DNA of 63,142 bases, taken from the IMG/VR virus record IMGVR_UViG_3300021085_000001, positions 1 to 63,142 of that record; one strand, 5' to 3'. The translations under genes were made by a program, and so were the position numbers. Below, one piece after another: positions 27,622 through 61,420 of this stretch; within the stretch, counting starts at the first letter, position 1; the number at the start of each line of letters is the position of its first letter. The DNA comes from a virus (Duplodnaviria; Caudoviricetes). The notes under the pieces were generated by a model. The model was not told the DNA's origin. It saw only the letters and a list, made by a program, of their open reading frames with translations, and did no database searches.

Positions 27622-29658
27622 ATGGCACAAAGTAAAAGAACTTTTCAAGCTGCTCAAATGAATAAGGATCTTGATGATAGATTAGTCTCTCAAGGAACTT
27701 ATAGAGACGCTTTAAATGTCAGTGTTGCTTTCTCTGAAGACGGTAATGTAGGCGCTTTAGAAAACCTAAAGGGAAACGAACTGATAGCTAATCAAAATAT
27801 AACAGGGCTTAGCGCTGTGTCTAATCCAAATGCTGAGGTTGTTGGTAGTATAGCTCACCCGGAAGAAAATAAAATTTATTATTTTGTATCAGGTGATAAT
27901 TCAGACGGTATATTTGAATACGATGTTGAAGCAAATACCATATCTACCATAATAATCGACAGCTCTTCGCCGCCGCCAGCACCTGTACAGTTAAAATTTA
28001 CATTTGCCAACTCCTTAGCACAGGCTTCTGTAGCTATTAATGGAGCAATTACCGTATCTTCTAGTTTAGGCGAAATAGAAAGTATTACACAAGACTTTAA
28101 CGAAACGGTTACCACTGATACATTAAGAACTATCTCAGTTAGAGTTAAGGTTCCTAATGGATATAGTAATAAAAATAGCTACGTTAGTGGTACTCTAACA
28201 GCTACCCAGCAAGCTATTGCGGCACCAATTGTATCGTCAATTACTATTTTAGAGCCGACCAATATAACAAGCACCTCTGTTACTTTAAACGGAAAATATA
28301 CACAGGACGCGGCTTCGCTCACAGATGTAGGCTTTTACTATGCTCCCAATACAGGCGGTTCTAGTCCCGCTAGTTTGTATTCTAATAAATTTGTTATATT
28401 AGATTTAATTGGTAGCAGTGCTAATATATCCAGTGGAGCTCCTAATTGGACAGACCCATTCGATACAGTTGAGCCAGGCGATATAACCGTTACAGATGGA
28501 AACGGAGACATAATAGCTTCTAGCAATTATGTATACGAACGTTTCTATGGTGCACAACCTTCTGTAATAACCTTTAATGACGATTATTTAGCTATACTCC
28601 CGGTTACGGTTGCGCAGACTAGCACGTTAACTACAGTATCTGATGCTTTAACAAGTACTCAAATAGTTTCTACAGGAACCCAAGTTTCGTTATCAAGTGC
28701 TATAACATCGCCCTTTAAAGCTGATATAACAAGTTTATCATCAAGCACTGAGTATACCGCAGTTGCTTATGTTACTAATGCGCTAGGCACAACTTATAGT
28801 GATATCGTAACATTTAGTACTGAAGCAGTAGCCGTCCCCACATACAACGCTCTACCAGACGATAGAATTTTTATTTTTCCAACAGCTGACGACACTCAGT
28901 ACGGAGCTAACCTTTATCCTGGGTATAGAGAATTTGAAAAAAACGGAGGAGACTTTTATTTTGCTGCAGTAGCTTCAAAAGCCTCAGGATTATATAATGA
29001 TTATAATGATTTAACCTCAGGGGTAACATGGTCAAATTTAGGAGTTAATTTTACTTACAACGATACAGAAACCCAAAACTATGCAAAAACTAGTTCCGTT
29101 AATGTTTCAACTTCTTCAGCGGGAGTATACACTATCACTGCCGCTAAAAGCGGTTTAACATCGGGGACTACACAAATAGTTGTTGGCAGCCCCGCAGGAA
29201 CGCGTTATAAATCAACATTTACATTAAACTTTGCAAAAACAGGCACAGGCACAGTTCCGTTTGTTGCTGAATTTGACCACAATGTTAGCACCGCTCTCCA
29301 TTGGAACGCAGCGCCTGCTGAATTGGCTGAATTTTCTATCGGACCATTTAATCAAGGCCAAGATGGCGCTATAATGATACCTTTATCCACTGACAATAGT
29401 GTTGCAATCGCTCCAACCGGAACTACTACTGCTAAGTTTAACAACAATACGTTTAATCCAGAAAATTTAGATGTTTCTATTTCAGGAAAAACTGAAGGGG
29501 TTGATTTTGAATACTATATAGCTACTGAAGCGATGAGTATATGGGGAGGGACTGGTATAGGACCTGTGCCTGCAGTTATAATAGAAGCCGACCCTTATGT
29601 GTTAAACGGAGGGACTGCTAACGTTACTCACACTTTAAATATAACTTATAATTATTAA
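27622..29658 (+). CDS. Tail muzzle/stabilisation protein part 1 with Fn3/Ig-like extension
   Basis: MNKDLDDRL...YRDALNV...VGALENLKGN N-terminus typical of crAss-like muzzle proteins. Confidence 0.7.
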   Translation: MAQSKRTFQAAQMNKDLDDRLVSQGTYRDALNVSVAFSEDGNVGALENLKGNELIANQNITGLSAVSNPNAEVVGSIAHPEENKIYYFVSGDNSDGIFEYDVEANTISTIIIDSSSPPPAPVQLKFTFANSLAQASVAINGAITVSSSLGEIESITQDFNETVTTDTLRTISVRVKVPNGYSNKNSYVSGTLTATQQAIAAPIVSSITILEPTNITSTSVTLNGKYTQDAASLTDVGFYYAPNTGGSSPASLYSNKFVILDLIGSSANISSGAPNWTDPFDTVEPGDITVTDGNGDIIASSNYVYERFYGAQPSVITFNDDYLAILPVTVAQTSTLTTVSDALTSTQIVSTGTQVSLSSAITSPFKADITSLSSSTEYTAVAYVTNALGTTYSDIVTFSTEAVAVPTYNALPDDRIFIFPTADDTQYGANLYPGYREFEKNGGDFYFAAVASKASGLYNDYNDLTSGVTWSNLGVNFTYNDTETQNYAKTSSVNVSTSSAGVYTITAAKSGLTSGTTQIVVGSPAGTRYKSTFTLNFAKTGTGTVPFVAEFDHNVSTALHWNAAPAELAEFSIGPFNQGQDGAIMIPLSTDNSVAIAPTGTTTAKFNNNTFNPENLDVSISGKTEGVDFEYYIATEAMSIWGGTGIGPVPAVIIEADPYVLNGGTANVTHTLNITYNY

Positions 29659-60542: not shown

Positions 60543-60938
60543 TTATTCATTAGTAAATTCATCAAATTCGTCTTCATCCATATTAGATTCTAAGTAGTCG
60601 AGCATATAGTACTCGTCAAAGTAATCATCAACATCATAACAGGCAACAGTTACCGTCTCGCTAGAAGGTTTGAAGCAACGCAAGTCGTCAATCGCACTCA
60701 TAATTGCATCAAAGTCTGGTTGATAATAAAATACTTCGTTTTCAAAGTTTAAATTTTGTACGTCTGCTGTTATATAATGTAAATCGTAGCCATCAGCCGT
60801 GTTTATTGTACCGATCTCGATATCTCCATTGCCGTCTACGAAATTAATTTTAGCTTCTTCTTGAAATTTTTGTAGTGTTGTCATGTTATTTTTTCTTTGA
60901 TTTAATTGATTTATTTGTTCTAATTGATATGCATCCAT
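60543..60938 (-). CDS. Very acidic early protein, possible DNA mimic
   Basis: Asp/Glu/aromatic rich; start at 60938 or 60884, not the track start that lies inside the RNA gene. Confidence 0.6.
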   Translation of the reverse strand: MDAYQLEQINQLNQRKNNMTTLQKFQEEAKINFVDGNGDIEIGTINTADGYDLHYITADVQNLNFENEVFYYQPDFDAIMSAIDDLRCFKPSSETVTVACYDVDDYFDEYYMLDYLESNMDEDEFDEFTNE

Positions 60939-60955
60939 AATTTTCTTTTTTTTAG

Positions 60956-61030
60956 TGGACGAGGCGGGAGTTGCACCCGCGTTTCCGATAGTGTACTTTC
61001 GAACTTTGTCGGTCAATCTACTTCTCGCCC
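60956..61030 (-). ncRNA. Miniature tmRNA-like RNA (tRNA-like domain only, Ala acceptor)
   Basis: GGGCGAG/CTCGTCC acceptor stem with G3:U and A discriminator; T arm GCGGG-TGCAACT-CCCGC; stemless D loop ending ATTGAC; short CCGA/TCGG arm instead of an mRNA domain. Confidence 0.75.
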
Positions 61031-61040
61031 GGTTTTTTAT

Positions 61041-61364
61041 TTAGCTTGCTTCGTTTAATACTTCTTCTAGTTGTGACCACACAACCGTGTCGTCGTTTTC
61101 GGTTAGATAATCATATAAGCAAGCGTAAGCTGCTTGTTCTAAGCTATTTGGTCGGCCAAATAAATCGTGCTCGTTGTAATGGTAGTCACTATTGTTTTCA
61201 AGTATAGCTTCACAATTTGCATAATAGATAACTGAATTGTCAATGTATACATGCATGTACTCGTAGAAATCATCGTGGTCGTTTATTTCGGCACCGTGAA
61301 AAGCATTCCATACTTCTTCGTTAAAATCTTGTTGTAATTCGTTTAGTTTGTTATTGTATTGCAT
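61041..61364 (-). CDS. Ocr-like (T7 gp0.3) DNA-mimic antirestriction protein
   Basis: MQYNN...EINDHDDFYEYMHVYIDNSVIYYAN...LYDYLT...VWSQLEEVLNE parallels T7 Ocr MTYNN...[26 protein letters not shown]...IYEQLT...LWEDAEDLLNE (recalled); strongly acidic. Confidence 0.75.
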   Translation of the reverse strand: MQYNNKLNELQQDFNEEVWNAFHGAEINDHDDFYEYMHVYIDNSVIYYANCEAILENNSDYHYNEHDLFGRPNSLEQAAYACLYDYLTENDDTVVWSQLEEVLNEAS

Positions 61365-61386
61365 GTTATTTATTTTTATATTCAAT

Positions 61387-61420
61387 TATATTATCACCTG
61401 TTTATTTAGTTTGTAACGTA
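61387..61420 (-). promoter_or_regulatory. Class I motif copy 4, upstream of ocr-like gene and mini-tmRNA
   Basis: TACGTTACAA-N13-GTGATAATATA. Confidence 0.85.

What the first reader, a model, noticed from the sequence alone, without database searches (positions are those of the whole stretch)
60956..61030. A 75-nt mini-tmRNA: tRNA-like domain with alanine identity but no mRNA/tag domain
Seen (minus strand): GGGCGAG AAGTAGATTGA CCGACAAAGTTCGAAAGTACACTATCGG AAAC GCGGG TGCAACT CCCGC CTCGTCC A. It has a 7-bp acceptor stem with a G3:U wobble and A discriminator, a 5-bp T stem with 7-nt loop, no D stem and no canonical anticodon arm. A 28-nt imperfect hairpin closed by CCGA/TCGG sits in the middle, and CCA is not encoded. 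Known: G3:U70 plus A73 specify alanylation; a stemless D loop ending in GAC and a GCGGG/CCCGC T arm are hallmarks of the tmRNA tRNA-like domain bound by SmpB; normal tmRNA has roughly 250-300 more nt (pseudoknots and tag ORF). Inference: it starts about 10 nt after the Ocr-like gene under an early promoter, so it could be a counter-defence RNA. It might act as an SmpB/EF-Tu decoy that blocks ssrA tagging, or as a tag-free, anticodon-less rescue RNA for ribosomes stalled by host toxins.
Basis: partly seen in the sequence, partly recalled or inferred. Interest (0 to 1): 0.9.

Follow-up and report, generated by a model that had tools for sequence, protein, structure and literature searches.

The report
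Phage tag-less mini-tmRNA gene
This marine phage carries a 75-base gene for only the alanine-accepting, tRNA-like end of the bacterial ribosome-rescue RNA (tmRNA); the type is already known from mycobacteriophage DS6A, so it is a new member of a known but rarely annotated family that probably interferes with the host's rescue-and-tagging system.

Summary
At 60956-61030 (-) lies a 75-nt RNA gene with a 7-bp acceptor stem (G3:U70, A73), a stemless 11-nt D loop, a weak 28-nt central hairpin, a 4-nt linker and a 5-bp/7-nt T arm. It has no anticodon arm, no tag frame and no encoded CCA. ARAGORN and Rfam gathering thresholds miss it. A covariance model built without it or its three closest relatives finds it as the only hit in the genome (61.2 bits, E 4.5e-10). 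An earlier model, built without DS6A, finds one strong hit in mycobacteriophage DS6A. DS6A is the phage whose 'TLD only' tmRNA is already published (PMC4131195, PMC11915505). The family is widespread in viral contigs and shows compensatory changes in the acceptor and T stems. The window's subfamily pattern gave 22 viral contigs and 0 of 185,579 species genomes. The most likely mechanism, inferred and not shown here, is early transcription, tRNA-type processing, alanylation and competition with host tmRNA for SmpB. This scan has reported the same family at least seven times on other DNA. It is a new member of a known kind, of moderate interest.

The parts
60956..61030 (-). TLD-only (tag-less) mini-tmRNA gene, 75 nt from G1 (61030) to discriminator A (60956)
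   Evidence: Sequence. Sole hit of models R1 (64.4 bits) and leave-out R2 (61.2 bits, E 4.5e-10).
61024..61030 (-). Acceptor stem, 5' strand GGGCGAG (G3 at 61028)
   Evidence: Across the family, acceptor pairs 4-7 show compensatory changes and 99.7% of cells are paired.
61013..61023 (-). Stemless D-loop region AAGTAGATTGA (reads ...GAC with the next base)
   Evidence: A 9-12-nt unpaired 5' segment occurs in 40 of 47 family members. It resembles the D loop of the full-length phage tmRNAs L100 and L039.
60985..61012 (-). Central hairpin (helix-2 stub) of 28 nt: CCGA / 20-nt loop / TCGG, in place of the anticodon arm and the whole mRNA-like domain
   Evidence: The interior is not conserved: L002 has a 33-nt version with another loop between identical flanks. 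The window's version is weak (z 0.0).
60981..60984 (-). Linker AAAC before the T arm
   Evidence: A 2-4-nt linker, mostly ending in AC, occurs in 40 of 47 members.
60964..60980 (-). T arm GCGGG-TGCAACT-CCCGC (5 bp, 7-nt loop; G at the second loop position)
   Evidence: The identical 17-mer lies inside ARAGORN-called full tmRNA genes in 14 of 15 viral loci tested. The family T stem is 100% paired, with compensatory change at the middle pair.
60956..60963 (-). Acceptor stem 3' strand CTCGTCC (U70 at 60961) plus discriminator A (60956). The next bases are CTA, not CCA.
61041..61385 (-).
   Evidence: It has 8 relatives in viral contigs and no PHROG or Pfam family.
60543..60884 (-). Downstream ORF (113 aa from the conserved ATG at 60884). 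The 157-aa TTG-started ORF that overlaps the RNA gene is probably spurious.
   Evidence: The start ATGACAACA... is conserved in L002 and L004.
61390..61417 (-). Promoter-like site GTTACA-16-GATAAT ahead of the upstream ORF, the likely start of the transcript that carries the RNA gene (inferred)
   Evidence: There is no promoter-like or terminator-like site between the upstream ORF and the element. The same motif recurs at 60539-60512.

Best explanation
The element is a gene for a tag-less 'TLD-only' mini-tmRNA. It is the tRNA-like domain of tmRNA with helix 2 closed by a short hairpin, and it belongs to the same family as the published TLD-only tmRNA of mycobacteriophage DS6A. The identity is shown here. 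The mechanism that follows is inferred. The RNA is probably transcribed early, together with the upstream acidic ORF. It would then be cut out by RNase P and 3' processing, given CCA by the host enzyme and charged with alanine by host AlaRS through G3:U70 and A73. It would be bound by host SmpB, since the phage encodes none. Without a resume codon or tag frame it cannot complete trans-translation. It would therefore compete with host tmRNA for SmpB, and possibly for EF-Tu and stalled ribosomes, and so lower ssrA tagging and rescue during infection. I put about 0.9 on the identity and about 0.5 on this mechanism. The figure given is for the whole statement.
For: Anatomy. Homology: leave-out model R2 gives a sole hit at 61.2 bits, E 4.5e-10. 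Model R1, built without DS6A, gives one strong hit in the 60.6-kb DS6A genome, at JN698994:28478-28557, 49 bits, E 3.6e-8, full length; the only other hit up to E 1 has 13.7 bits. That gene is not annotated in the record. Structure: on 47 distinct family members the acceptor is 99.7% paired with 4 of 7 pairs changed on both sides, and the T arm is 100% paired with 2 of 5. The covariation score is 0.401 against 0.108 in shuffles (0 of 500 reach it) and 0.047-0.111 in slid controls. RNAalifold on the unfitted MAFFT alignment predicts the same two helices. tmRNA character: the exact 17-nt T arm lies inside ARAGORN-called tmRNA genes with typical tags in 14 of 15 loci tested. The D loop and linker resemble those of the one-piece phage tmRNAs L100 and L039. 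No anticodon arm with an Ala anticodon was found in 46 of 47 members. The subfamily is phage-specific: 22 viral contigs against 0 of 185,579 species genomes. The phage has no SmpB and no integrase. [quoted passage not shown] TLD fragments bind SmpB and act on ribosomes in vitro (PMC3929946, passages). Weak expression hint: contigs of RNA libraries from two studies cover the element.
Against: No read-level evidence shows a discrete, CCA-tailed small RNA. One search used assembled contigs only, which cannot show ends, strand or level and may contain DNA. CCA is not encoded. The second T-loop base is G where tRNA and tmRNA usually have U/pseudouridine (recalled), though genuine phage tmRNAs share this loop. 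The window's central helix is among the weakest in the family (4 bp, z 0.0). The element is absent from relative L004, whose upstream protein is 65% identical, so it is dispensable. The inhibition data come from E. coli and from 'a similar molecule', and I saw them only as cited, because Mao et al. 2009 is not held. If inhibition needs no charging, simple SmpB titration does not explain why alanine identity is kept; that favours the productive-use rival. G1-G3, U70-A73 and most of the T arm were fixed by my search patterns. Their invariance is therefore evidence only in DS6A and in the 7 members found with an unconstrained acceptor, which all share one acceptor sequence.
Confidence: 0.6

Rival explanations
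1. Productive use. The alanylated TLD-SmpB complex enters ribosomes stalled on broken mRNAs, for example after host or defence RNases cut them. It would add one alanine, or untemplated runs of alanine. The ribosome would then be freed by drop-off or a release factor without the ssrA degron. This would be tag-free rescue or alanine tailing that serves the phage.
For: Alanine identity (G3:U70, A73) is kept in DS6A and in all subfamilies seen (ascertainment caveat applies), although inhibition reportedly needs no charging (PMC4131195). SmpB with a TLD fragment supports polyalanine synthesis without template in vitro (PMC3929946 citing Shimizu and Ueda 2006). Mitochondrial tag-less tmRNAs are thought to be limited to freeing stalled ribosomes (PMC3590771; PMC11915505).
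Against: No release mechanism is evident, and the phage has no SmpB. The only reported in vivo effect of such a molecule is inhibition.
Confidence: 0.2
2. Decoy for host nucleases or sensors that act on tRNA or tmRNA acceptor/T-arm shapes, rather than for SmpB.
For: It lies in the early region, next to a very acidic small ORF. Phage tRNA-like RNAs in counter-defence are a known theme (recalled, not tested).
Against: There is no specific evidence. The features kept are those of the SmpB/AlaRS-binding TLD. In other phages the element sits in the late structural module.
Confidence: 0.08
3. Cis-acting processing or stability signal. The tRNA-like fold is merely an RNase P/RNase Z cutting site that separates the upstream and downstream mRNAs, and the excised RNA has no function of its own.
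For: It lies inside a transcription unit with no promoter or terminator of its own. In the GC-rich group it lies between the portal and prohead-protease genes.
Against: A processing signal needs no G3:U70/A73, no tmRNA-type D loop and no linker. These are shared with real tmRNAs. Many members stand beside no gene pair in common.
Confidence: 0.07
4. Decayed or armless tRNA-Ala, or a remnant of an attachment site in a host tmRNA or tRNA gene.
For: RF00005 aligns end to end at 23.9 bits, E 0.0097 in a 401-nt scan. One subgroup lies beside an integrase.
Against: The score is below the Rfam cut-off. ARAGORN finds nothing, even in armless modes, and the window's central region has no 5-bp/7-nt arm with an NGC anticodon; only 1 of 47 family members has one. 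The central loop differs between the window and L002 while the TLD core is identical. The phage has no integrase. The 3' 25-mer has no match in 185,579 species genomes. An att remnant would not carry the 5' acceptor strand and D loop.
Confidence: 0.04

Closest known systems
'TLD only' (CDS-less) tmRNA of Mycobacterium phage DS6A (tmRNA Website tmID 11587; Hudson, Lau and Williams 2014, PMC4131195; PMC11915505; Mao et al. 2009, not seen)
   Same: It is phage-encoded, about 80 nt and of standard (non-permuted) order. It has a G3:U70/A73 acceptor, a stemless D loop, a short helix-2 hairpin in place of the mRNA-like domain and a T arm, and the bases after the discriminator are CTA. Model R1, built without DS6A, scores it at 49 bits end to end.
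   Different: The host and phage lineages differ: an actinophage of 70% GC locally against a marine phage of about 36% GC. The acceptor sequence differs. DS6A has a longer helix 2 with an inner hairpin, where the window has only 4 bp. The T loops are TTCGATT and TGCAACT. DS6A is temperate (integrase annotated), while the window phage has no integrase.
Mitochondrial tmRNAs without an mRNA-like domain (jakobids, oomycetes; Rfam RF02544) and CDS-less plastid tmRNAs of about 65 bp
   Same: These are natural tmRNAs reduced to the tRNA-like domain, with G:U at the third acceptor pair and an A discriminator. They are thought to be limited to freeing stalled ribosomes (PMC3590771; PMC11915505).
   Different: They are mostly circularly permuted two-piece genes (Jakoba libera excepted), organellar, and paired with a targeted SmpB. 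RF02544 gave no match to the window at E<=10.
Full-length one-piece and two-piece tmRNAs of phages (e.g. loci L039, L100, L010; OM43 phage Melnitz, PMC9004378)
   Same: L039, L100 and L010 carry the identical 17-nt T arm. In L100 and L039 the D loop and linker are similar and the acceptor has G3:U70/A73.
   Different: They are 306-434 nt long, with pseudoknot regions and a tag frame ending in ...AA. The window element has none of this.
Engineered TLD fragments used in structural and in vitro work (e.g. T. thermophilus TLD with a UUCG loop, PDB 2CZJ, as described in PMC3929946)
   Same: The design is the same: the 5' and 3' ends of tmRNA joined by a short hairpin. Such fragments bind SmpB and support peptidyl transfer or polyalanine synthesis in vitro.
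   Different: They are artificial. I made no sequence comparison with them.
Tymovirus tRNA-like structure (Rfam RF00233)
   Same: It shares the T-loop/stem motif GGGUGCAACUCCC, which explains the 19.7-bit partial match.
   Different: It is the 3' UTR element of a plant RNA virus, with a pseudoknotted acceptor. The score is far below the cut-off of 40, so the window element is not a member.

Membership tests
tmRNA tRNA-like domain (TLD) | 7-bp acceptor stem with G:U at the third pair and an A discriminator (alanine identity) | tested here: met
   GGGCGAG/CTCGTCC plus A at 60956. The same holds in DS6A.
tmRNA tRNA-like domain (TLD) | T arm of 5 bp with a 7-nt loop of tmRNA type | tested here: met
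   The identical 17-mer lies inside ARAGORN-called tmRNA genes in 14 of 15 loci tested. The loop has G at its second position.
tmRNA tRNA-like domain (TLD) | No D stem and no anticodon arm; helix 2 starts where the anticodon stem would be | tested here: met
   Fold. There is no arm with an Ala anticodon, and ARAGORN is silent in all modes. The family architecture is shown.
tmRNA tRNA-like domain (TLD) | Alanylation by AlaRS and binding by SmpB and EF-Tu | not testable with these tools
   This is inferred from the identity elements and from work on TLD fragments (PMC3929946).
tmRNA tRNA-like domain (TLD) | 3' CCA end | tested here: not met
   The genome reads A-CTA, so CCA would have to be added after transcription. 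DS6A also reads CTA.
Complete tmRNA (Rfam RF00023 and permuted forms) | mRNA-like domain with resume codon, tag frame and stop, plus pseudoknots | tested here: not met
   Only 28 nt lie between the D loop and the linker. This stretch holds no TAA, TAG or TGA (read directly). ARAGORN calls no tmRNA, and Rfam tmRNA models give at best 9.4 bits.
TLD-only (CDS-less) phage tmRNA, DS6A type | Homology with the DS6A element over the full length, in standard gene order | tested here: met
   R1, built without DS6A, finds one strong hit in DS6A (28478-28557, 49 bits; the next best is 13.7 bits, E 0.7). R2, which includes DS6A but not the window group, finds the window element at 61.2 bits.
TLD-only (CDS-less) phage tmRNA, DS6A type | Inhibits host trans-translation when expressed | not testable with these tools
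   Reported for a similar molecule in E. coli (PMC4131195, PMC11915505). The original paper is not held.
Canonical tRNA (RF00005), tRNA-Ala | Cloverleaf with D arm and anticodon arm; score at or above the gathering cut-off | tested here: not met
   23.9 bits against a cut-off of 29. ARAGORN gives 0 genes, whereas true tRNA-Ala genes in the same loci are called.

The most novel reading that the evidence does not exclude
The mini-tmRNA is not just an SmpB sponge. Kept chargeable with alanine, it would turn the host's SmpB/EF-Tu machinery into a template-free alanine-adding or tag-free rescue system. This would free ribosomes stalled on mRNAs cut by host or defence RNases early in infection without marking the products with the ssrA degron. 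It would be a phage-run analogue of the reduced mitochondrial tmRNA.
Probability: 0.2. Interest if true: 0.75.

Novelty: new member of a known kind. Interest (0 to 1): 0.4.

Why it matters
Standard annotation tools do not see this gene: ARAGORN and Rfam miss it, and the DS6A gene is not annotated in its GenBank record. The published record that I could read names a single phage example. The family nevertheless recurs in many unrelated phage lineages and in different genome modules: early region, head-assembly module, beside integrases and inside tRNA arrays. That spread suggests that manipulating trans-translation is a common phage strategy. It also gives a compact, natural tool of about 75 nt for switching off or rewiring tmRNA-SmpB, which is itself an antibiotic target. 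For this particular window the gain is a correct annotation and a clear set of tests.

Tried and rejected
BLASTN of the 1-kb region and of the element against 50,697 cultured-phage records found no match, so this gave no cultured relative and no host.

PHROGs and Pfam on the flanking small ORFs found no family apart from the DNA ligase further downstream. The 'Ocr-like' label stays unsupported.

Neighbour analysis covered ORFs within 2.5 kb of 50 elements, clustered by BLASTP, with Pfam on 10 representatives. No protein family is linked to the element across lineages. The clusters follow phage lineage: portal-MuF and prohead protease, integrase, DNA ligase.

tRNA co-occurrence, over 49 loci: 36 have no tRNA gene in the locus, 7 have only a tRNA-Met within 1.5 kb, 3 lie in tRNA arrays, 1 lies inside a permuted tmRNA call, 1 has a tRNA-Tyr nearby, and 1 has a tRNA elsewhere in the locus. 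I did not follow this up.

RNA-library contigs: X17 covers 60847-61050 and X18 covers 60912-61050 (study P12). Both stop at 61050 with the same 12 unlike letters, followed by Illumina adapter in X17. X15 (study P11) has an 830-nt contig over 60601-61364 with 27 differences. Only one of them lies in 60730-61079, so the low diversity is not specific to the 75-nt element. X16 has a contig that matches only 60995-61030 and then runs on unlike. Contigs cannot show ends, strand or level, and DNA may be present, so I count this only as a weak hint of transcription.

Helix 2 in the model-fitted alignment is only 64.8% paired because of register shifts. Per-sequence folding was used instead.

I rejected the attachment-site remnant, the armless tRNA-Ala and the chance-hairpin readings; the reasons are given under the rival explanations.

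The supplementary tables of PMC11915505 list the 79 phage and 9 'Standard, no CDS' sequences. They were closed and may already contain relatives. Searches for prior descriptions were. Only DS6A turned up as a phage TLD-only case.

Full report
1. Observation. The window is a complete 63,142-bp viral record with direct terminal repeats and about 36% GC. It recurs in marine and seawater metagenomes of 14 studies. In order, it has:
- a 7-bp acceptor stem, GGGCGAG/CTCGTCC, with G3:U70;
- an 11-nt unpaired D-loop region;
- a 28-nt hairpin closed by CCGA/TCGG;
- the linker AAAC;
- the T arm GCGGG-TGCAACT-CCCGC;
- discriminator A, followed by CTA rather than CCA.
The element begins 10 nt after the stop of the upstream ORF. 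The MFE structure reproduces all three helices. Energy alone is weak evidence (z -1.94).

2. Why standard tools miss it. ARAGORN finds no tRNA or tmRNA in the window, even in its armless mitochondrial modes or at lowered thresholds. Rfam at gathering thresholds finds nothing. A permissive local scan gives an end-to-end tRNA alignment at 23.9 bits (cut-off 29). It also gives a 19.7-bit partial match to the tymovirus tRNA-like element, caused by the shared T-loop motif, and 9.4 bits for permuted tmRNA.

3. Relatives by synteny. The upstream 114-aa ORF has 8 relatives in viral contigs.
- L002 (89% protein identity) has the same element. Its 5' 26 nt and 3' 35 nt are identical to the window's, but its central loop is different and longer.
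- L004 (65% identity) has no element. The two flanking genes there are about 12 nt apart.
- L008/L159 (54% identity) carries a diverged copy about 900 nt further downstream. It has compensatory changes in acceptor pair 6 and in the middle T-stem pair, and a canonical TTCGACT loop.
The element is therefore a mobile or dispensable cassette. Its tRNA-like core is conserved and its central loop is not.

4. A large family.
- A degenerate pattern gave more than 120 contigs.
- Across 223 loci plus the window I found 63 distinct GGG...TCCA candidates with a fully paired acceptor. ARAGORN of them as tRNAs (9 as tRNA-Ala) and leaves 50 uncalled.
- A few of the 50 are not mini-tmRNAs. L155 is part of a permuted tmRNA, and L140 and L205 show D-stem-like pairing.
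- Model R1, built from 32 sequences, scores family members at about 48-75 bits. Among the lower-scoring hits (about 33-45 bits) are loci where ARAGORN calls ordinary tRNA-Ala genes.

5. Structural support, on 47 distinct members.
- The acceptor stem is 99.7% paired, and 4 of its 7 pairs changed on both sides.
- The T stem is 100% paired, and 2 of its 5 pairs did so.
- The covariation score is 0.401, against 0.108 in column shuffles (0 of 500 reach it) and 0.047-0.111 for slid partners.
- RNAalifold on the unfitted MAFFT alignment predicts the same two helices.
- Per-sequence folding shows a common plan: a 9-12-nt unpaired 5' segment in 40 of 47, a central stem-loop, and a 2-4-nt linker in 40 of 47.
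- The window's central helix is one of the weakest (4 bp, z 0.0).

6. Limits of these counts. G1-G3, U70-C72, A73 and most of the T arm were fixed by my search patterns, so their invariance in these counts is not evidence. A scan that left the acceptor free returned 9 loci. Seven are family members, all with G3:U70 and A73, but all share one acceptor sequence. The other two look like ordinary tRNAs.

7. Leave-out test. Model R2 was built from 38 members and excluded the window, L002, L040 and L206. It finds 60956-61030 (-) as the only hit in the whole genome with filters off (61.2 bits, E 4.5e-10).

8. It is tmRNA-derived, not a tRNA.
- The identical T arm lies inside ARAGORN-called tmRNA genes with typical tag peptides in 14 of 15 loci tested. 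Two of these are one-piece and twelve are permuted.
- The one-piece phage tmRNAs L100 and L039 have very similar D loops and linkers.
- No member except one borderline case has a 5-bp/7-nt arm with an Ala anticodon.
- The phage has no integrase and no SmpB.
- The 3' 25-mer and the subfamily pattern both have 0 matches in one genome for each of 185,579 species. The same pattern finds 22 viral contigs, mostly 47-69 kb long.
An attachment-site remnant or a host gene is therefore excluded.

9. Prior art.
- The tmRNA database paper (PMC11915505, passages) lists 79 phage tmRNA sequences and 9 'Standard, no CDS' forms. It says that a CDS-less form from phage DS6A was reported earlier and shown to inhibit endogenous tmRNA in E. 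coli.
- Hudson, Lau and Williams (PMC4131195, passages) list 'Mycobacterium phage DS6A (TLD only)'. They state that a similar molecule, chargeable or not, strongly inhibits tmRNA, perhaps by titrating SmpB, citing Mao et al. 2009. That paper is not held.
- R1, built without DS6A, finds one strong hit in the DS6A genome, at 28478-28557 between gp33 and gp34 (49 bits, full length). The only other hit up to E 1 has 13.7 bits. The gene is not annotated in the record.
- Tag-less tmRNAs are also known from jakobid and other mitochondria and from some plastids (PMC3590771; PMC11915505).
- TLD fragments bind SmpB, mimic tRNA on the ribosome and support template-free polyalanine synthesis in vitro (PMC3929946).
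- This scan has already reported the same family at least seven times on other DNA, with the same closest relative.

10. Mechanism. What is shown is the gene's anatomy, its family and its tmRNA ancestry. The rest is inferred. The only promoter-like site ahead of the element is GTTACA-16-GATAAT at 61417-61390, before the upstream ORF, and there is no terminator-like site. The RNA is therefore probably cut out of an early polycistronic transcript by tRNA-processing enzymes, CCA-tailed, alanylated and bound by host SmpB. With no resume codon it cannot finish trans-translation. The best-supported outcome is competition with host tmRNA. That alanine identity is kept, although charging was reportedly not needed for inhibition, leaves room for a productive role such as tag-free rescue or alanine tailing. 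Contigs of RNA libraries from two studies cover the element, but they cannot show ends, strand or level.

11. Contexts elsewhere. In a GC-rich group the element lies between a portal-MuF fusion gene and the prohead protease gene. In another group it lies next to a tyrosine integrase. In the marine group related to the window an ATP-dependent DNA ligase lies downstream. No partner protein is shared across these contexts.

12. Verdict. The element is a new, divergent marine member of the known TLD-only phage tmRNA kind. Its interest is moderate because the kind and its likely effect are in print and the family's breadth has already been seen in this scan. The function during infection remains untested.

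Noticed in passing
L005:3368-3432: At the position where the window has the mini-tmRNA, just after the homologous acidic ORF, this relative has a different structured-looking element. A 7-bp outer stem (AGGTGTG/CACACCT) encloses a CCCG/CGGG hairpin. It is not tRNA-like.
   Followed up: no
L021, L036, L045, L050, L052, L075, L078, L099, L104, L109, L110, L223: A GC-rich group of 77-nt TLD-only genes (acceptor GGGGGCG) lies on the same strand between a portal-MuF fusion gene and the prohead protease gene, that is, in the late head module. Its helix 2 shows compensatory double changes in L075.
   Followed up: partly
L019:7788-9105; also L116, L188, L203: TLD-only genes lie directly beside a tyrosine integrase gene. 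This might link them to integration into the host tmRNA gene, in the way described for tRNA-dependent lysogeny (PMC10865867).
   Followed up: no
L123, L143, L151, L178, L185, L209, L057: In 7 of 49 loci the only tRNA gene within 1.5 kb of the mini-tmRNA is a tRNA-Met on the same strand.
   Followed up: no
window 60964-60980; loci: The T arm with loop TGCAACT (G at the second loop position) is shared by phage tRNAs, full-length and two-piece phage tmRNAs and TLD-only genes in over 106 viral contigs. The same loop motif causes a spurious partial match to the tymovirus tRNA-like Rfam family.
   Followed up: partly
L008:2186-2230: A second small tRNA-like minihelix: a 5-bp stem (GCGTA/TACGC) around a canonical T arm GCGAG-TTCGATT-CTCGC, followed by AACTAAA.
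   Followed up: no
It is acidic and conserved in 8 viral contigs, but the label is unsupported.
   Followed up: partly
window 60752-60876: RNA-library contigs of X17 and X18 show the same 'opposite strands' joint between 60752 and 60846. It could be an assembly artefact at an inverted repeat or a snap-back cDNA.
   Followed up: no
window 60543-61016 (-) and 60924-61058 (+): Two mechanical ORFs (157 aa with a TTG start, and 44 aa) overlap the RNA gene. Homologues of the downstream gene start at the ATG at 60884, so both overlaps are probably spurious.
   Followed up: yes
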